This document shows, piece by piece, positions 1-33,844 of a stretch of 33,844 nucleotides of DNA; positions within the stretch are counted from its first letter, which is position 1, and each line of letters starts with the position of its first letter. Position numbers and translations under genes: made by a program. Location: positions 1-33,844 of IMG/VR virus record IMGVR_UViG_3300030330_002667; one strand, 5' to 3'. The notes below the pieces were generated by a model. The model did no database searches. It was not told the origin of the DNA and saw nothing but the letters and a program-made list of their open reading frames with translations. The stretch comes from a virus (lineage: Duplodnaviria; Caudoviricetes).

Positions 1-100
1 AGCAGAGGCTGTGATAAGCAAAACTATTCCAGCTATGGTCAACATCATCTCTTGTCTTTCCTGTGCCTCACGCCTCATCCTAGCCTCTAGTTCACGCTTT
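1..100. repeat. Terminal direct repeat, left copy (circular-assembly overlap)
   Basis: 1-100 equals 33745-33844 except position 2 (g vs a); it falls inside an ORF that reads through the junction. Confidence 0.95.
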
Positions 101-26815: not shown

Positions 26816-26875
26816 AGTCCTATACTTGTACATGAAGAATGTATGTAAAACATAGACAAGATATAGGAGAATAAA

Positions 26876-27397
26876 ATGTCTAAGATAATAAATGCATTAA
26901 CTAAACTATCACTTGATACTGAAGTATACAACTCATATGAAGACAAGTGGGAACATAAAGACCAGATGGATTTCCCACGAAAGATACTGATCGAAGCCTT
27001 CTTGGATAAACTCTACTGGTTGACCAAAGGAAAGAACAGTAGCACTAGACCATCTGGTAGCGAAGCCTATGTAACTCAGCAAAAAGCTAGAGTGAAGTAC
27101 GCACAAGAAACGTACAGAGGTGATGAGATCTCAGAGATCAGGCTTCGCGGCGCGATAGCGAACTGTCAAGCAGCATCTGATAAGCACGAAGTGCTTTCGC
27201 AGATGCAGACACAGCTACACACCTTCTATCTAGAAACATACGGAGAAGATTACTTACCGTATGGTTCAGCCAAGGGTTCAAATGTACCCGTATCAGCTGA
27301 GTCAGACATACCGACTGACATCCAACAGCAGCTTGAAGCTCTGGGCATGGCTGAACCAGCTAACGAGCCTACGGAACAGAAGAAGAAGAAAGCTTGA
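26876..27397 (+). CDS. Hypothetical early protein
   Basis: 173 aa, RBS AGGAG, followed by a terminator. Confidence 0.85.
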   Translation: MSKIINALTKLSLDTEVYNSYEDKWEHKDQMDFPRKILIEAFLDKLYWLTKGKNSSTRPSGSEAYVTQQKARVKYAQETYRGDEISEIRLRGAIANCQAASDKHEVLSQMQTQLHTFYLETYGEDYLPYGSAKGSNVPVSAESDIPTDIQQQLEALGMAEPANEPTEQKKKKA

Positions 27398-27405
27398 TAA
27401 CTAAC

Positions 27406-27438
27406 AAGGGTAGAGTCACACGGCTCTACCCTTTTTTT
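27406..27438 (+). terminator. Intrinsic terminator
   Basis: AAGGGTAGAG...CTCTACCCTT stem running into T7. Confidence 0.9.
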
Positions 27439-27593
27439 ACGCTAGTAAAAATAGAGCGCCATGCTATTCCTCGCAAGCTCGGGCATGGTCGCAGTCGGAG
27501 ATTGCACCTTCGGTTGGGGGTGTTATGTGTGGGTTTTGCCCCTGACTTTCAGGGCAAAATCAAAAACTTGTAGATCAATAAAAGGAGAACGAA

Positions 27594-27818
27594 ATGTCAA
27601 ACATACTAACTGAAAGAGAATCACGATTAGCAGTTGTGCTATTTGAGATGCTAAAACCACAAATCGAAAAGATGATTGATGACAAGCTTGATGGCTTCAA
27701 AGAGTCTGAAATAAATGACTCATCAAGTTTTGATATCGGAGAATACACTTCAGAGATCAATGACATGATTGAAGATTATGTTCGATACAATATCACTATC
27801 ACTTCAACAATAGACTAA
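27594..27818 (+). CDS. Hypothetical acidic protein
   Basis: 74 aa, RBS AAGGAGAAC. Confidence 0.8.
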   Translation: MSNILTERESRLAVVLFEMLKPQIEKMIDDKLDGFKESEINDSSSFDIGEYTSEINDMIEDYVRYNITITSTID

Positions 27819-27828
27819 GGAGAACGCA

Positions 27829-28209
27829 ATGATAATTACATACAACAAAAAGAAATATCCTGACATGACAACACATCAGATGATGGGTTGGGGTGGATTC
27901 ATTCCGCTTTGGATAACTGAATGGAACTTAAGGCGCACTTGCTTTGCCATTCAAGAAACTTTGTTTGATCATCTTCATACTCAGTACGAAGCTCGTTCTG
28001 GTATGGGGATAAAAGGTAGAGAAATAACTGGTGAGCTAGATGACAAAGGTATTCTTCGTCATCCAGAAGACCCACCCATGTATCCATTTATGACATGGGA
28101 TACTGAAGAAGGTTCAGTTTACTTCTATCCTTATTCAGTAATGGGTATTCCACTTGAGCGACCAAGCATTACTACTGGTCAAACACATTATGTAACGAGG
28201 ATGGACTAA
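27829..28209 (+). CDS. Hypothetical protein
   Basis: 126 aa, RBS AAGGAGAAC. Confidence 0.8.
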   Translation: MIITYNKKKYPDMTTHQMMGWGGFIPLWITEWNLRRTCFAIQETLFDHLHTQYEARSGMGIKGREITGELDDKGILRHPEDPPMYPFMTWDTEEGSVYFYPYSVMGIPLERPSITTGQTHYVTRMD

Positions 28210-28433
28210 TGGGTAGATCAACACCTAAATTTACACGCAGAGACTTTGAGTTTATTGCTGACCACATCATGCCTTACATGAGTTGGGCTACTGGCATTGA
28301 GCAAGTAGCCAATGAACTCAAGCGCACCAATCCAAATTTTGATTGGGACAAATTCGTAGATCGTGCTACCAAGAACTGGGAAGAAGAACATTTACGAGGT
28401 CAGGAGAACTTATATGACGACATCCCATACTAA
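28209..28433 (+). CDS. Hypothetical protein
   Basis: 74 aa, TAATG-coupled; FTRRDF...TNPNFDWDKF motif; acidic DDIPY tail. Confidence 0.75.
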   Translation: MGRSTPKFTRRDFEFIADHIMPYMSWATGIEQVANELKRTNPNFDWDKFVDRATKNWEEEHLRGQENLYDDIPY

Positions 28434-28593
28434 ACTTTGTAAGGAATGTGGTGGTGATGGGTACATCGAGTATGATGTACCCAAACCTCACGGATTTGAC
28501 AGAGATGTTGGATACATAGATAGTGCTACCGAAGTATGCCCTGAGTGTCAGGGTCTTGGTATTGCATATGAAGAAGAGGATATTAGTTTCTAA
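28414..28593 (+). CDS. DnaJ-type CxxCxGxG zinc-finger protein (59 aa)
   Basis: CKECGGDG and CPECQGLG; ATG 28414 preceded by GGAGAAC, preferred over the track start at 28363. Confidence 0.8.
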   Translation: MTTSHTKLCKECGGDGYIEYDVPKPHGFDRDVGYIDSATEVCPECQGLGIAYEEEDISF

Positions 28594-28848
28594 TTGCCCA
28601 ACACAAGGTTGTCTCACAACTACAATGCTATGATAGATATGTTAGTAGCAGCGAGACATGAACAGAGATTAAGCCAGCCACAGCTGGCAAATATCATAGG
28701 CTGTACCGAATCTTTGATTCACAAATGGGAGCAGCACAAGAGAGTACCGTCTGGTTTCTTTCTTATGTGTTGGTTAGAGGCATTAGGATATGACATCGAA
28801 GTCACGAAAAAAGAAGACAACAATAACGTGCGTCAGTTGCGAAAGTAA
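28594..28848 (+). CDS. XRE/Cro-family HTH transcriptional regulator
   Basis: RHEQRLSQPQLANIIGCTESLIHKWEQHKRVPS; start uncertain (TTG 28594 or ATG 28630). Confidence 0.85.
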   Translation: MPNTRLSHNYNAMIDMLVAARHEQRLSQPQLANIIGCTESLIHKWEQHKRVPSGFFLMCWLEALGYDIEVTKKEDNNNVRQLRK

Positions 28849-29110
28849 AACGGAATGGTTTGTTGCTATACTAAAAAACAATAGTGAAAGAACAATGGAG
28901 AAGCATTGGTATGTGTGTCTCCATTGCTATGAGGAGGACAGATGGCAAATCGTAACAAGTCAAAAGGAACATACCACGAAAAATGGTTTGTCGATTGGCT
29001 CAACAAAATCAAGGCGCAGATCAAAGCGAAACGCGTCCCCCTCTCAGGAAGTTTGGGAGGCGAGTATTCAGGGGACATCCACCTCGACATCAATGGACAA
29101 CGATTGGTAG
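28790..29110 (+). CDS. Putative zinc-finger protein overlapping both neighbours
   Basis: CVSC...CLHC pair; fills the 28849-28941 gap; GAGG upstream. Confidence 0.5.
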   Translation: MTSKSRKKKTTITCVSCESKTEWFVAILKNNSERTMEKHWYVCLHCYEEDRWQIVTSQKEHTTKNGLSIGSTKSRRRSKRNASPSQEVWEASIQGTSTSTSMDNDW

Positions 29111-29301
29111 GTGAGGTAAAGTATAGGGATACATCTAATTTCCCTAGCCCCTTCAAAGTATTAGAAGGCAGGGACATTGCCTTTTATAAAAGACGGAGAG
29201 GAACTCCGCAAACGTTGGTCATCATGACTGGCAATCAATTTAAACAACTAATGGAGAACAACAATGGAATCTCAAAACAAACTAATCAAGAAACATCTTG
29301 A
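28942..29301 (+). CDS. PD-(D/E)xK Holliday junction resolvase-like nuclease
   Basis: NKSKGTYHE...RVPLSG...GD...EVKYR motif; RBS GAGGAGG. Confidence 0.8.
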   Translation: MANRNKSKGTYHEKWFVDWLNKIKAQIKAKRVPLSGSLGGEYSGDIHLDINGQRLVGEVKYRDTSNFPSPFKVLEGRDIAFYKRRRGTPQTLVIMTGNQFKQLMENNNGISKQTNQETS

Positions 29302-29464
29302 AGATGGTCACACCATCACAGCAATCGAAGCATTAGAAATGTTTAAATGCTTTCGTTTGGCATCAAGAATATCTGATCTCAAGCAAGCTGGTTGTGTTAT
29401 CGACAGTCAATTCATCGAAGTCGAGAGCGGAAAGAAAGTCAAAGAGTATTGGATTGCACAATGA
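29264..29464 (+). CDS. Winged-helix HTH protein
   Basis: ITAIEALEMFKCFRLASRISDLKQAG motif; RBS GGAGAAC. Confidence 0.8.
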   Translation: MESQNKLIKKHLEDGHTITAIEALEMFKCFRLASRISDLKQAGCVIDSQFIEVESGKKVKEYWIAQ

Positions 29465-29820
29465 AATCATTAGGTCGTGCTGTAGAAGATAGTGTGTGGT
29501 CTCAAAGCTTGAGCCGCACACCACATGAGATCTATGCAAAAGATAGAGAGAAACAAAGAGAGAGCAGAATGCACTGGACTCCTGACACTCTCAAAATTAT
29601 GGCCGAGCGTATCCTCGAACGCAAACCAGTTGGTCATAATTATCTTTGGGGTCGAGAAGCTATTGAAATGATTAATAAAAATCTAATCATGGAAAGCGAT
29701 CTCGAGCCCCATCGAAGAGCATATGCCAAATCACTACGTGAGACTTACAGTGGTGATACAGCTGACATCATGCTGCTCGAACTCATGACTCAGCATGAAA
29801 AAGTAAAAGAAATGACGTAA
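29461..29820 (+). CDS. Hypothetical protein (119 aa)
   Basis: ATGA overlap at 29461-29464 favours this start over 29392. Confidence 0.7.
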   Translation: MKSLGRAVEDSVWSQSLSRTPHEIYAKDREKQRESRMHWTPDTLKIMAERILERKPVGHNYLWGREAIEMINKNLIMESDLEPHRRAYAKSLRETYSGDTADIMLLELMTQHEKVKEMT

Positions 29821-29825
29821 CGTCA
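29813..29825. promoter_or_regulatory. Palindromic operator TGACGTAACGTCA
   Basis: Perfect 6-1-6 palindrome upstream of the exonuclease gene. Confidence 0.7.
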
Positions 29826-29889
29826 CAAACTGTTACCCTATCGTTTGTGGTAGGGTAACAAAACAAAAATAATAAATGGAGAACGTAAC

Positions 29890-30666
29890 ATGGAACGCAA
29901 AGGTTTCATTGGTGGTAGTGACTGCACCAAAATTATGGAAGGCCATTGGCTAGAACTATGGAAGGTAAAGACAGGTCGTGAAGAACCAGAGTCTTTACTA
30001 CGCAACTTACCTGTTCAGCTTGGTAATCATACTGAGAACTTCAATCTTAAATGGTTTGCAATGCATGAAGCAAAAGCTGTTGTTGCACATCAACGTGAGT
30101 TTACTGGGACTATTGGAACAGTGCCAGTCAAAGCTACAATCGATGGTGCTATACAAGGTGAAAGAAATATTATTGAAGCCAAGCACACCAATAACTTTTA
30201 TAACATGGACAAGATGTTGGACAGATACATGCCACAGATACAGTTGTACTGTCACATGGCAAAGGCAGAGGGTGTCTATCTGTCTGTAATATTTGGTAAT
30301 AGTAACTGGGAGTGTGTGCATGTCGCATATGACGAAGAGTATTTCAATTCTATGTGGGCAGTGGTGTCTGACTTCTGGGGTTACGTTGTACGCGATGAGG
30401 AGCCAGTTGATATCAACACACCAAACATCTCAAGAGTATCAATTGCGTTGGACGATATGGTCACACGAGATGCATCAACCGACAACCAATTCGTTGACGC
30501 AGCCGTTACCTACATCCACGGATACGAACAAAACAGAGTCTTCAAGAATGCTGAGAAAGATCTCAAGCAAATGGTCGGTGATAACGAACGAGAAGTTTTC
30601 TGCGACCAACTCACCGTCAAGCGTGACAAGCGCGGACATCTTAGAATAACAAGGAGAACCAAATGA
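29890..30666 (+). CDS. YqaJ/lambda-exonuclease-like recombination nuclease
   Basis: RKGFIGGSD...LWKVKTG...ATIDG...IIEAK...QIQLY motifs. Confidence 0.92.
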   Translation: MERKGFIGGSDCTKIMEGHWLELWKVKTGREEPESLLRNLPVQLGNHTENFNLKWFAMHEAKAVVAHQREFTGTIGTVPVKATIDGAIQGERNIIEAKHTNNFYNMDKMLDRYMPQIQLYCHMAKAEGVYLSVIFGNSNWECVHVAYDEEYFNSMWAVVSDFWGYVVRDEEPVDINTPNISRVSIALDDMVTRDASTDNQFVDAAVTYIHGYEQNRVFKNAEKDLKQMVGDNEREVFCDQLTVKRDKRGHLRITRRTK

Positions 30667-31124
30667 CTACAAAAACTAAAACAAATATTATCAAGCTGCT
30701 CATGGATGCACGTGCAGCAATACAGCCTATCAAAAAGAGCGGTACTAATCCACACTTCAGAAGCAAGTACGCTACGCTCGAAGGTGTGATCGAAGCAGTC
30801 ACTGAGCCACTAGCAAAGCATGGCTTTCTATTGATCCATCGATCAACACAAAACGAGCATGGCATGACCATCACAACAGAGCTTGTGCATGAGTCAGGCG
30901 AAAGCTTTGTTACTGCAATACCTCTTGTGCTAGGCAAGAATGATATGCAAGGATTGGGTAGTGCAATTACATATGCACGACGCTATGGCATCATGTCTCT
31001 TCTAAACCTCCCTGCGGAAGACGATGATGGTAACCAAGCATCAAAGGGTGCGGCACCGAACCCCACAAATTCGGGTGACGCACCCCGACCCAAAACAATA
31101 AACGCAAGTAATACAAATTGGTAA
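30663..31124 (+). CDS. erf: ERF-family single-strand annealing protein
   Basis: NPHFRSKYATL...HESGE...QGLGSAITYARRY...EDDDG. Confidence 0.95.
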   Translation: MTTKTKTNIIKLLMDARAAIQPIKKSGTNPHFRSKYATLEGVIEAVTEPLAKHGFLLIHRSTQNEHGMTITTELVHESGESFVTAIPLVLGKNDMQGLGSAITYARRYGIMSLLNLPAEDDDGNQASKGAAPNPTNSGDAPRPKTINASNTNW

Positions 31125-31145
31125 TTCTTGGGGATAATCCTATGA

Positions 31146-31154
31146 TGCTATAAT
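31146..31154 (+). promoter_or_regulatory. Extended -10 promoter upstream of ssb
   Basis: TGCTATAAT matches TGnTATAAT in an intergenic gap. Confidence 0.65.
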
Positions 31155-31219
31155 AACCTGATCGAGGGGCAGGTTCCCCAAGAACCCCTCACCAACACTA
31201 AACAAAAGGAGTCAGAAGC

Positions 31220-31624
31220 TTGACAGAATATGATAACAACAATAGTGGTGTTGCATTCCCACCTTTCGAAGACATGAAAATGATATTGCAAGGCAAAGTA
31301 AATGTAGAGGGTCGTGATTCTAAGTGCGTGGTTGTACGCAGAGTCACACAGTCTGGCATGGAAGTCATGGAAGTGTACGAGAAAGTTGGTGTTATGTTTA
31401 AAAACGACAACGCCAAAGAGAACGCACCAGATTACACTGGTAAAGTCTATGACACAGCAGACAAGCAAATGCCTTGGACTGCACCATATACAGACAAACG
31501 ACTGGCAGCATGGAGAAGAATGAAAGATGGCAAGCCTTACATGTCATTCGTTTTATCTGATCCACAAAATAAAAATGATGAACAGTCAAATAATTCCTTG
31601 CCTGTTGATGAGATACCGTTTTAA
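31220..31624 (+). CDS. ssb: Putative single-stranded DNA-binding protein
   Basis: NAPDYTG...AAW...PYMSF motif, acidic DEIPF tail, follows exo-erf; TTG start with RBS AAGGAG. Confidence 0.65.
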   Translation: MTEYDNNNSGVAFPPFEDMKMILQGKVNVEGRDSKCVVVRRVTQSGMEVMEVYEKVGVMFKNDNAKENAPDYTGKVYDTADKQMPWTAPYTDKRLAAWRRMKDGKPYMSFVLSDPQNKNDEQSNNSLPVDEIPF

Positions 31625-31728
31625 TTAGAGGCACGTTCTCCAAGAGAGTGCGCTCACACTGCTCAACATGCCTGTTAGCCTCGCTGCTCTCTTGTTACTT
31701 GCCAGCCCTTTGGGGCTGGCCTTTTTTT
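31625..31728 (+). ncRNA. Candidate 3'UTR-derived sRNA carrying anti-SD seed GUUCUCC
   Basis: Non-coding hairpin 31628-31655 containing the complement of the early-gene RBS motif; ends in a terminator; expression not shown. Confidence 0.45.
31701..31728 (+). terminator. Intrinsic terminator
   Basis: GCCAGCCC-TTTG-GGGCTGGC then C and T7. Confidence 0.92.
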
Positions 31729-31742
31729 GGAGTAATTAAACT

Positions 31743-32072
31743 ATGGATTTAACAGACGAAACAAAAGAATTAATACGTGAAGAAGTATATGAGTATCTTA
31801 AAAATGAACCAATAAGATTCTCTGAAGAATACACAGAAAATATTCAATCATCTATTGAAGACTACTTCATGTATATAAAACAAGTATTAGAAGATGAACA
31901 TTCTACACTTGAATCATTAGAAATAAGTAACGCAGCAATGACTATGCAAGCTATGTATTTACTTGTGTCATGTTGTTTAGAAGAAATATTACCAAGAGTT
32001 TATTTAAAACCAGAATGGTTGCGAAGCGAAGGCTGGGAAGAATTTATAAAAAAAGCTAAAAAAGGAAAATAA
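31743..32072 (+). CDS. Hypothetical acidic protein (AT-rich)
   Basis: 109 aa, RBS GGAG. Confidence 0.75.
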   Translation: MDLTDETKELIREEVYEYLKNEPIRFSEEYTENIQSSIEDYFMYIKQVLEDEHSTLESLEISNAAMTMQAMYLLVSCCLEEILPRVYLKPEWLRSEGWEEFIKKAKKGK

Positions 32073-32074
32073 AA

Positions 32075-32359
32075 ATGTCACCACTAGAACAAATGATAGC
32101 AGATGCTAAAGTATGCAACGATAAGTTGTATAAAATAGAGGGTAAAATGAATGTACACAAAAGGCGCGGCAAACTATCGAGCGGAAGTAAGCCGAAGCAG
32201 ACACCACGATCTGCCACGTTTGGTGAGGGATGGCGCAACAGCCCCCTCACTGAACGAGAGATTGATGATATAAAATATTTTCTAAGCAAAGACTGGTGCG
32301 TAGGATCTACAGCAAAGATTGTAGGTGTCAGCATGAGTACAGTAAAGAAGTACATGTAA
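32075..32359 (+). CDS. Hypothetical protein with C-terminal HTH
   Basis: LTEREIDDI...VGSTAKIVGVSMSTVKKY. Confidence 0.7.
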   Translation: MSPLEQMIADAKVCNDKLYKIEGKMNVHKRRGKLSSGSKPKQTPRSATFGEGWRNSPLTEREIDDIKYFLSKDWCVGSTAKIVGVSMSTVKKYM

Positions 32360-32589
32360 TGGAGTTCTTCTATACGCTATTGGTTATTGGTTACGAAGTA
32401 GCAGAAAATCCAACACATGTAATAGTTGTTTTTGATGACTATGATTCTTGTCAGCAATCACTAGTCATAGCAGATCCTCTGTACAATTACATAGATGCAT
32501 ACGAGATGTACTGCATAGAAAGTGACGTAACGTCACGAATTATTATGCCAAAGCCTAGACCGAAAGCTCAAAGTGAGGCGCATCAATAA
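32359..32589 (+). CDS. Hypothetical protein (76 aa)
   Basis: TAATG coupling gives start MEFFYTLLVIG; two Cys and a PKPRP tail. Confidence 0.7.
   Translation: MEFFYTLLVIGYEVAENPTHVIVVFDDYDSCQQSLVIADPLYNYIDAYEMYCIESDVTSRIIMPKPRPKAQSEAHQ
32522..32536. promoter_or_regulatory. Palindromic operator GTGACGTAACGTCAC
   Basis: 7-1-7 palindrome with the same core as 26395 and 29813. Confidence 0.6.
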
Positions 32590-33681: not shown

Positions 33682-33844
33682 TTATCTAAAATAACTTCTT
33701 ATGTCTAACCACCCCATATAATGCAGATATAGCGTAGAGCCAACAACAGAGGCTGTGATAAGCAAAACTATTCCAGCTATGGTCAACATCATCTCTTGTC
33801 TTTCCTGTGCCTCACGCCTCATCCTAGCCTCTAGTTCACGCTTT
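33682..33844 (-). CDS. 3' part of the junction-spanning protein that starts at 387
   Basis: In frame with 1-387 through the 100-bp overlap; stop TAA at 33682-33684. Confidence 0.8.
   Translation of the reverse strand, partial: KRELEARMRREAQERQEMMLTIAGIVLLITASVVGSTLYLHYMGWLDIRSYFR
33745..33844. repeat. Terminal direct repeat, right copy
   Basis: Matches 1-100, with 98 bp exact (3-100 = 33747-33844). Confidence 0.95.

What the first reader, a model, noticed from the sequence alone, without database searches (positions are those of the whole stretch)
26866..31728. Candidate phage anti-Shine-Dalgarno sRNA circuit: six early genes share RBS GGAGAAC, and its complement sits in a hairpin 3' of ssb
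Seen: GGAGAAC occurs at 27584, 27819, 28403, 29253, 29878 and 30653, each ending 3-5 nt before an early-gene ATG. GGAGAAT at 26866 precedes the first early gene and would pair by G-U wobble. The trailing AAC is not needed for 16S pairing, and I did not see the motif before ssb, the genes after it, or late genes. The non-coding 31625-31728 segment (hairpin 31628-31655, terminator 31701-31728) is on the same strand and contains GTTCTCC at 31635-31641. ACGTTCTCCA (31633-31642) is a perfect 10-nt complement of TGGAGAACGT at the exonuclease RBS (29877-29886), and CGTTCTCC also matches GGAGAACG at 27584 and 27819. Known: sRNAs with C/U-rich anti-SD seeds repress multiple mRNAs in alphaproteobacteria. 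Inference: the ssb transcript (own extended -10 at 31146) or a processed 3' fragment shuts off translation of the early regulon in trans. Alternative: GGAGAAC is a protein-bound translational operator.
Basis: partly seen in the sequence, partly recalled or inferred. Interest (0 to 1): 0.85.

Follow-up and report, generated by a model that had tools for sequence, protein, structure and literature searches.

The report
Phage RNA seed silences early genes
In a family of uncultured marine phages, a short word in the untranslated tail behind the ssb-like gene is the mirror image of a tag in the ribosome-binding sites of many early genes and changes in step with that tag across relatives, so it likely pairs with those messages to turn early protein synthesis off.

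Summary
Observation confirmed. Six GGAGAAC sites lie 3-5 nt before early ATGs, and the only reverse copy lies 10 nt behind the ssb stop. The tag is early-specific: 31/45 early versus 1/47 late GGAG sites in five genomes. The seed is kept 8-10 nt after the stop down to about 48% protein identity. It co-varies with the tag: 70 both, 40 neither, 9 tag only, 1 seed only among 120 scored relatives. Clades that switched the tag to GAGGAAGTA or GAGGAAATG carry the matching new seed in a loop, and the bases beside the core change in step. Best reading: a 3'-UTR RNA that blocks several early ribosome sites. No transcript or function is shown, and one lineage keeps the tag without the seed. Closest known: PcrX and icaR 3'-UTR regulators, T4 RegB shut-off, and the unexplained Cluster K start-associated sequences, whose lone reversed copy in Adephagia also sits in a hairpin loop. 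Earlier unchecked notes of this scan report similar seeds in other phages.

The parts
26866..26872 (+). GGAGAAT tag before the first early gene (G-U wobble target; weakest, predicted net -2.9 kcal/mol)
27406..27438 (+). terminator-like hairpin behind the first early gene; would put that target on a separate transcript
27584..27591 (+). tag GGAGAACG before ORF 27594 (8-nt match to the seed)
27819..27826 (+). tag GGAGAACG before ORF 27829 (8-nt match)
28403..28409 (+). tag before the 59-aa zinc-finger-like ORF at 28414
29253..29259 (+). tag before the winged-HTH ORF at 29264
29877..29886 (+). tag before the exonuclease; 10-nt perfect match, best predicted target (net -10.3 kcal/mol)
29890..30666 (+). 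YqaJ/RecE-like exonuclease gene
30653..30659 (+). tag before erf
30663..31124 (+). Erf single-strand annealing protein gene
31125..31190 (+). three-stem pseudoknot RNA: P1 31125-31134/31175-31184, variable P2 region 31135-31155, P3 31156-31160/31170-31174, pseudoknot 31164-31169/31185-31190; optional in the family
31220..31624 (+). probable SSB gene (DUF736-like, all-beta model, acidic DEIPF tail); its ribosome site GGAGTCAG lacks the tag
31625..31728 (+). structured 3'-UTR RNA (fold z -3.4; no Rfam match)
31633..31642 (+). seed ACGTTCTCCA; core GTTCTCC at 31635-31641, 10 nt after the stop codon
31641..31694 (+). long stem-loop behind the seed; loop carries recurring ACACTG and GCCTC words; absent in minimal relatives
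31701..31728 (+). intrinsic terminator; covarying stem with G-U pairs in the + orientation

Best explanation
The tail of the ssb message carries a 7-11-nt seed that is complementary to, and co-evolves with, a tag overlapping the Shine-Dalgarno site of about half of the early genes; it likely pairs with those sites as RNA and would block ribosome loading, shutting early translation down while ssb and late genes escape. Shown: the complementarity, its early specificity, the fixed place of the seed between stop codon and terminator, and compensatory change across the family. Inferred: the tail is made as the end of the early exo-erf-ssb message, since many relatives have no room for an ssb promoter. 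Inferred: it outlasts the rest as an ssb mRNA or a shorter processed piece, protected by the terminator and, where present, by the upstream pseudoknot. Inferred: it then titrates two to eight tagged sites mostly in trans, as a delayed negative feedback at the early-to-late switch.
For: Early 31/45 versus late 1/47 GGAG sites carry GGAGAAY in five near-complete genomes. The six tagged starts rank 1-6 of 41 window starts by duplex energy. The seed is in 132 of 187 loci, 129 of them 8-10 nt after the stop. Seed and exonuclease tag: 70 both, 40 neither, 9 tag only, 1 seed only of 120 rows at 95%; 6 independent pairs on well-supported branches, median p 0.031. Motif switches: GAGGAAGTA with TACTTCCTC (L108-110, 113, 118) and GAGGAAATG with CATTTCCTC (L111, 114), both seeds in open loops; the new tag is again early-biased (5/11 vs 0/24 and 7/10 vs 2/15). 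Own UTR beats swapped UTRs in every seed class. Flank: sister loci L376 and L388/L403 have different 11-nt perfect matches; among seed-bearing rows the own match is 8.31 vs 7.46 +/- 0.15 permuted, 0/20000; non-exonuclease targets also co-vary, 56/95 vs 40.8 +/- 5.6, 51/10000. All 9 non-Watson-Crick cells of 210 in the 7-nt core are G-U (the row selection partly enforces this). The ssb site matches its own UTR over at most 6 nt in 52 of 52 rows. In clade L041 the 3' seed is gone and GTTCTCCT sits in the pseudoknot's P2 loop.
Against: No transcript or functional data. A lineage related to L136 (L459, L469, L523, L529, L530) keeps GGAGAAC at the exonuclease and other early starts with no seed in the DNA held, and L364-371 have GGAGGAAGTA without a complement; their whole genomes could not be searched. 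In the first set only 4 independent pairs were available, p 0.125, and the trait patterns were widened after seeing the data. The seed is only partly open: mean unpaired probability 0.5-0.65, opening cost under 2 kcal/mol in 26 of 44 UTRs, 1.4 for six bases and 3.8 for all seven in the window, rising to 6.8 when 225 nt of ssb coding sequence are folded with it. A terminator separating a tagged gene from the seed was found in only 5 of 32 loci, so trans action is not forced by the layout. In clade L041 only 9 of 55 early sites keep GGAGAAY. 6 of 52 flank positions mismatch.
Confidence: 0.6

Rival explanations
1. Same pairing, but only in cis: the 3' end of one long early message folds back on a ribosome site of the same molecule (mainly the exonuclease site), icaR-style, silencing it or making an RNase III substrate once transcription is complete.
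For: Most targets and the seed can lie on one transcript: no separating terminator in 27 of 32 loci. The exonuclease site has the longest or tied-longest match in 16 of 25 loci, mean 8.3 vs 7.8 nt. Precedent: icaR (abstract).
Against: One seed faces 2-8 tagged sites per locus; non-exonuclease sites co-vary too; the window's first gene is tagged yet followed by a strong terminator-like hairpin.
Confidence: 0.17
2. The tag is a protein site (a RegB-like nuclease/S1 site or a translational or DNA operator), and the reversed copy is a site on the opposite strand or a decoy; co-variation follows changes in the protein's specificity.
For: The T4 RegB consensus GG*AGRAYARAA matches GGAGAAY, and RegB also silences early messages. 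The seed-less lineage keeps the tag. Many early proteins have no known family.
Against: No RegB or RelE hit among early proteins in PHROGs or Pfam. Departures in the core are G-U wobbles in the + orientation. The structure and poly-T belong to the + strand. Single-base flank matches of up to 11 nt differ between sister phages. Switched seeds sit in hairpin loops.
Confidence: 0.12
3. The pairing is real but not repressive, or is aimed elsewhere: it closes the message into a loop that stabilises it or recycles ribosomes finishing ssb, or the seed mainly hits host messages.
For: The seed sits at a fixed 8-10 nt from the stop, about the edge of a terminating ribosome (footprint size recalled). GGAGAAC-N3-5-ATG occurs 34 and 37 times in two Rhodobacterales bins that hold relatives.
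Against: The duplex covers the GGAG core and is predicted stronger than the 16S-tail duplex at all seven sites. Host-directed targeting would not explain phage tags changing in step with the seed.
Confidence: 0.08
4. Ordinary strong ribosome sites with an A-rich spacer, and a chance complement near a terminator.
For: GGAGA is a common Shine-Dalgarno word; the window count alone is only p about 0.01.
Against: Conservation of the seed in otherwise diverged UTRs; AAC follows GGAG in 211/359 early sites of seed-bearing rows vs 12/160 of the others; compensatory switches.
Confidence: 0.03

Closest known systems
PcrX and other 3'-UTR-derived sRNAs of Rhodobacter sphaeroides (PMC8625941, passages read)
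   Same: Cut from the 3' UTR of a polycistronic message, ends at the terminator, and regulates a gene of its own operon.
   Different: Host-encoded and experimentally shown; here phage-encoded, predicted only, with one seed matched to a private tag on many ribosome sites. No sequence or Rfam relation.
icaR 3'-UTR/Shine-Dalgarno pairing, Staphylococcus aureus (PMC3868564, abstract and outline read)
   Same: An anti-Shine-Dalgarno word in a 3' UTR blocks initiation.
   Different: icaR silences its own gene; here the carrier gene (ssb) escapes and several upstream genes are matched.
Start Associated Sequences of Cluster K mycobacteriophages and Microbacterium cluster EF phages (PMC3203893, PMC7302621, passages read)
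   Same: Over-conserved tag at the ribosome site of non-structural genes, with bases not needed for 16S pairing; four K1 phages have one copy in the opposite orientation; function stated as unknown.
   Different: 13-nt tag, unrelated sequence and hosts; the reversed copy lies in an intergenic hairpin loop rather than behind ssb; these papers propose no RNA partner at that site in the passages read.
T4 RegB endoribonuclease (PMC3014915, passages read)
   Same: Early messages are marked by an extended GGAG motif (GGAGRAYARAA) and inactivated at the ribosome site.
   Different: The effector is a protein nuclease with S1; no homologue found here, and RegB needs no complementary RNA.
Phage antisense RNAs: P22 sar, lambda OOP and aQ, 24B_1 (PMC12197685, parts 1-2 of 6 read); P1/P7 C4 and P4 CI (recalled; one search found no paper)
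   Same: Phage RNA pairs with phage mRNA to control translation and timing.
   Different: Those have one or two targets and are mostly cis-antisense or act in lysogeny control; no C4 Rfam match here.
Flaviviral xrRNA (PMC7603331, passages read), for the upstream pseudoknot only
   Same: Three-way junction whose third-stem loop pairs with sequence 3' of P1; xrRNAs are reported there to block 5'-3' exonucleases including RNase J1.
   Different: P1 is 9-10 bp with no linker before the pseudoknot; the 5' tertiary contacts were not identified; no Rfam match; nuclease resistance untested.

Membership tests
3'-UTR-derived base-pairing sRNA | Conserved seed in a 3' UTR ending at an intrinsic terminator | tested here: met
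3'-UTR-derived base-pairing sRNA | Seed complementary to target translation-initiation regions, with compensatory change | tested here: met
3'-UTR-derived base-pairing sRNA | Seed single-stranded or cheaply opened | tested here: inconclusive
   median opening cost 1.5 kcal/mol, under 2 in 26 of 44; a weak self-hairpin is frequent
3'-UTR-derived base-pairing sRNA | Discrete RNA accumulates by processing or from an internal promoter | not testable with these tools
   needs infection RNA data; the proposed promoter is not conserved
3'-UTR-derived base-pairing sRNA | Represses targets in trans, often with Hfq | not testable with these tools
   needs reporters; host unknown
Known Rfam families (C4, Cuckoo/CcsR, xrRNA and others) | Covariance-model match | tested here: not met
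   no match over 31125-31728 at E <= 5
T4 RegB system | GGAGRAY-type motif in early ribosome sites | tested here: met
T4 RegB system | regB-like nuclease gene | tested here: not met
   no such PHROG or Pfam hit among the early ORFs tested; remote homologues not excluded
Start Associated Sequences (Cluster K type) | Asymmetric repeat 3-7 nt before non-structural gene starts, one reversed copy | tested here: met
   against the description
Start Associated Sequences (Cluster K type) | The 13-bp Cluster K consensus and the extended inverted repeats | tested here: not met
   the tag here is a different 7-10-nt word; extended repeats were not searched for
xrRNA (upstream element) | Three stems with a loop-to-3' pseudoknot supported by covariation | tested here: met
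   94.8% of 483 cells paired, 11 of 21 pairs with two-sided change, 0/500 shuffles
xrRNA (upstream element) | Blocks a 5'-3' exoribonuclease | not testable with these tools
   needs an in vitro RNase J or Xrn1 assay
SSB (gene 31220-31624) | SSB fold, acidic C-terminal tail, position after exo and annealase | tested here: inconclusive
   Foldseek hit to Vibrio phage JSF9 SSB, E 7.9e-4, TM 0.42; no PDB match at E <= 0.001; DUF736 below cut-off

The most novel reading that the evidence does not exclude
Lytic phages can time the early-to-late switch with no protein regulator: early genes carry a private barcode in their ribosome sites, and one nuclease-protected RNA (pseudoknot cap, ssb, seed, terminator) reads the barcode and silences the whole set. 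The same logic explains the start-associated sequences of Cluster K mycobacteriophages, whose single reversed copy is the seed. The hypervariable P2 loop of the pseudoknot is a second, exchangeable guide.
Probability: 0.35. Interest if true: 0.92.

Novelty: new variant of a known kind. Interest (0 to 1): 0.78.

Why it matters
How small phages without their own polymerase or nuclease shut off early translation is poorly known. A seed that co-evolves with a regulon-wide ribosome-site tag would be the RNA counterpart of T4 RegB and a compact, orthogonal multi-gene off-switch. It also gives a direct test for a question left open since 2011: the role of start-associated sequences. In the cultured phage Adephagia the one reversed copy lies in the apical loop of a stable plus-strand hairpin in a non-coding gap, so the idea can be tested genetically in Mycobacterium smegmatis.

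Tried and rejected
Antisense ribosome site: no minus-strand start opening 20 or more codons follows the motif in 0 of 53 seed-bearing rows. Conserved ssb promoter: 1 of 33. Rfam: no meaningful hit. Expression: no RNA holder listed; the one run X1 is contigs of unknown kind, and shows only a relative that keeps 31628-31727 and lacks ORF 31743. RNAalifold on a MAFFT alignment recovered only the terminator because the middle stem is out of register between clades; per-sequence folds were used instead. A first pseudoknot parser failed and was rewritten. The pattern scan for the pseudoknot was mostly chance: 13 of 80 listed loci passed the parser. P2 loops against the phages' own ribosome sites gave only 6-8-nt Shine-Dalgarno-core matches with no early/late pattern. 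The nearest isolate, Pelagibacter phage Hodr, has GGAGG-type sites, a different SSB and no gap behind it. PDB Foldseek gave nothing at E <= 0.001; the wide structural search was not obtained. Whole records of the seed-less lineage are not held. The careful tree did not finish; quick trees were used. Literature searches that found no description of this element; the library is open-access only.
Full report
Context. The window is a whole 33.8-kb phage record, 38% G+C. Structural and packaging genes lie on the minus strand; an early block lies on the plus strand from 26876 to 32589 with HTH proteins, a resolvase, a YqaJ exonuclease, Erf and a probable SSB. The SSB call is moderate: weak DUF736 similarity, an all-beta model, a Foldseek match to a Vibrio phage SSB at E 7.9e-4, no PDB match. 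The nearest isolate is Pelagibacter phage Hodr (terminase 66%). Relatives occur in two Rhodobacterales bins and one Opitutae bin. The host is unknown; a marine alphaproteobacterium is an inference.

Observation. All coordinates hold. The count alone is modest (1 of 100 shuffles), but position and class matter. In the window and four near-complete relatives, 31 of 45 early GGAG sites read GGAGAAY against 1 of 47 late ones. Genes were called by my own heuristic, G003 was left out of that sum because it lacks the 3' seed, and the genomes are kin, so the Fisher p of 1.5e-12 overstates independence. The six tagged starts take ranks 1-6 of 41 by duplex energy with the seed region; the GGAGAAT start ranks 12th. 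The extended -10 is private to this genome.

Conservation. GTTCTC(C/T) follows the ssb stop in 132 of 187 loci, at 8-10 nt in 129, while the rest of the UTR varies from a bare seed plus terminator to a long hairpin. The terminator covaries and its non-canonical pairs are G-U on the plus strand. No Rfam family matches.

Co-variation. From 162 loci holding both exonuclease and ssb, 83 representatives at 95% gave 52 with seed and tag, 28 with neither, 2 tag only and 1 seed only (a mis-called start, L182). Only 4 independent pairs were well supported, p 0.125. Adding 92 usable loci of 196 new ones gave 120 scored rows (L182 dropped): 70, 40, 9 and 1; at 85%, 30, 26, 6 and 0; six independent pairs, median p 0.031. 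The patterns were widened slightly for this second count. Stronger are the switches. L108-110, L113 and L118 use GAGGAAGTA and show TACTTCCTC in a loop; L111 and L114 use GAGGAAATG and show CATTTCCTC; L119-120 pair GGAGAG with TTCTCTCC; L491 pairs GGGAGATA with TATCTCCC. Each class matches its own UTR best: 0.53, 0.59, 0.78 and 0.35 of sites with 7 or more complementary bases, against 0.00-0.36 swapped. The new tags are early-biased as well. Within GTTCTCC carriers the next base pairs in 46 of 52 rows, own beats permuted 0/20000 at 85% and 4/20000 at 75% dereplication, and non-exonuclease targets follow, 51/10000. Permutations do not fully remove kinship, and these phages are mosaic (L025 looks recombinant).

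Against. L459, L469, L523, L529 and L530 keep GGAGAAC with no seed in the DNA held, and L364-371 keep GGAGGAAGTA with no complement. This may be lag after seed loss, a seed elsewhere, or a protein reading the tag; their genomes could not be searched. Seed accessibility is middling. A terminator splits a target from the seed in only 5 of 32 loci.

Second element. Between erf and ssb lies a three-stem pseudoknot: 94.8% of cells paired, 11 of 21 pairs with two-sided change, better than all slid controls (23 sequences chosen from 33 distinct copies). It is optional, 56 of 189 loci. In clade L041 the 3' seed is absent and GTTCTCCT is displayed in its P2 loop; there GGAGAA is in 33 of 55 early sites against 12 of 76 in seed-less loci, though the full GGAGAAY is in only 9 of 55. 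Its layout resembles xrRNA, which is reported to resist RNase J1, and R. sphaeroides has RNase J. A protective 5' cap for the ssb-seed RNA is a hypothesis only.

Mechanism. Shown: complementarity, early specificity, plus-strand structure, co-variation. Inferred: the seed pairs over the GGAG core, with predicted net energies of -2.9 to -10.3 kcal/mol after opening costs, and excludes the 30S subunit. Inferred: because erf or its analogue abuts the ssb site in many relatives, the tail is made with the early message, survives its decay, and builds up to silence 2-8 sites per locus, while ssb, whose site matches at most 6 nt, stays on. I put this at 0.6, cis-only pairing at 0.17, a protein-read motif at 0.12, non-repressive or host-directed pairing at 0.08, and chance at 0.03.

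Known systems. It works like PcrX (passages) and icaR (abstract), and has the same purpose as T4 RegB, whose consensus even matches the tag (passages). It is a member of none by sequence. The anatomy equals that of start-associated sequences, whose function is left open in the passages read (supplementary figures not read). In Adephagia 16 copies are forward and one reversed; the reversed one is in the loop of a plus-strand hairpin in a non-coding gap, z -3.0 for 101 nt and -6.6 for a 141-nt stretch with a neighbouring hairpin. The region is conserved in 182 records; the loop word was found in 2 of 5 phages examined, so this extension is a lead. A phage sRNA review (parts 1-2 of 6) lists no regulon-wide case in the parts read, and searches found none. 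C4 and P4 CI are recalled. Eight unchecked notes of this scan describe similar seeds in other phages; none covers this family. They are not evidence, and three supplied the icaR lead.

Verdict. A real, conserved, co-evolving RNA element; a new variant of a known kind; function predicted, not shown. Interest 0.78.

Noticed in passing
window 31125-31190: New covarying three-stem pseudoknot RNA starting right at the erf stop and ending 26-33 nt before the ssb start; found by my parser in 56 of 189 loci, 0 of 60 shuffles. Its P2 region is hypervariable even among close relatives and often shows TCCTTT-like words. xrRNA-like layout.
   Followed up: partly
L331:30683-30695 (Adephagia 58682-58694): The single reversed start-associated sequence of this Cluster K phage sits in the apical loop of a strong plus-strand hairpin in the gap between genes 92 and 93. 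The same loop is in Nutello; it was not found within one mismatch in Ximenita, Bryler or Yuna (2 of 5).
   Followed up: partly
window 26395, 29813, 32523 (half-sites 26730, 26748): Palindrome TGACG(T/A)(T/A)ACGTCA in the divergent control region, before the exonuclease and near the end of the early region; present in 25 of 83 representative loci. Candidate operator for one of the HTH proteins.
   Followed up: partly
window 31659-31683 and relatives: ACACTG and (TT)GCCTC recur in the loop of the middle hairpin, and GCCTC also in some P2 loops; no consistent phage target found. Possible host-directed seeds.
   Followed up: partly
relatives, 3' UTR: AACT lies just before the terminator stem in 55 of 58 seed-bearing rows, also in minimal UTRs that are only seed, AACT and terminator.
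   Followed up: no
window 29830-29861: Hairpin followed by an A-rich stretch just upstream of the exonuclease ribosome site; could be a processing or 5' stability element.
   Followed up: no
window 31200-31222: The ssb ribosome site GGAG(C/T)CAGAAGC is itself very conserved across the family, more than a Shine-Dalgarno site needs; the window's clade uses a TTG start.
   Followed up: no
window 31743-32072: A 109-aa ORF with no family hit sits right behind the terminator and is missing in close relatives: a variable insertion slot.
   Followed up: no
window 1-100 and 33745-33844: Near-identical terminal repeat; the window is a whole circularly permuted phage record without DNA polymerase or integrase hits.
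   Followed up: no
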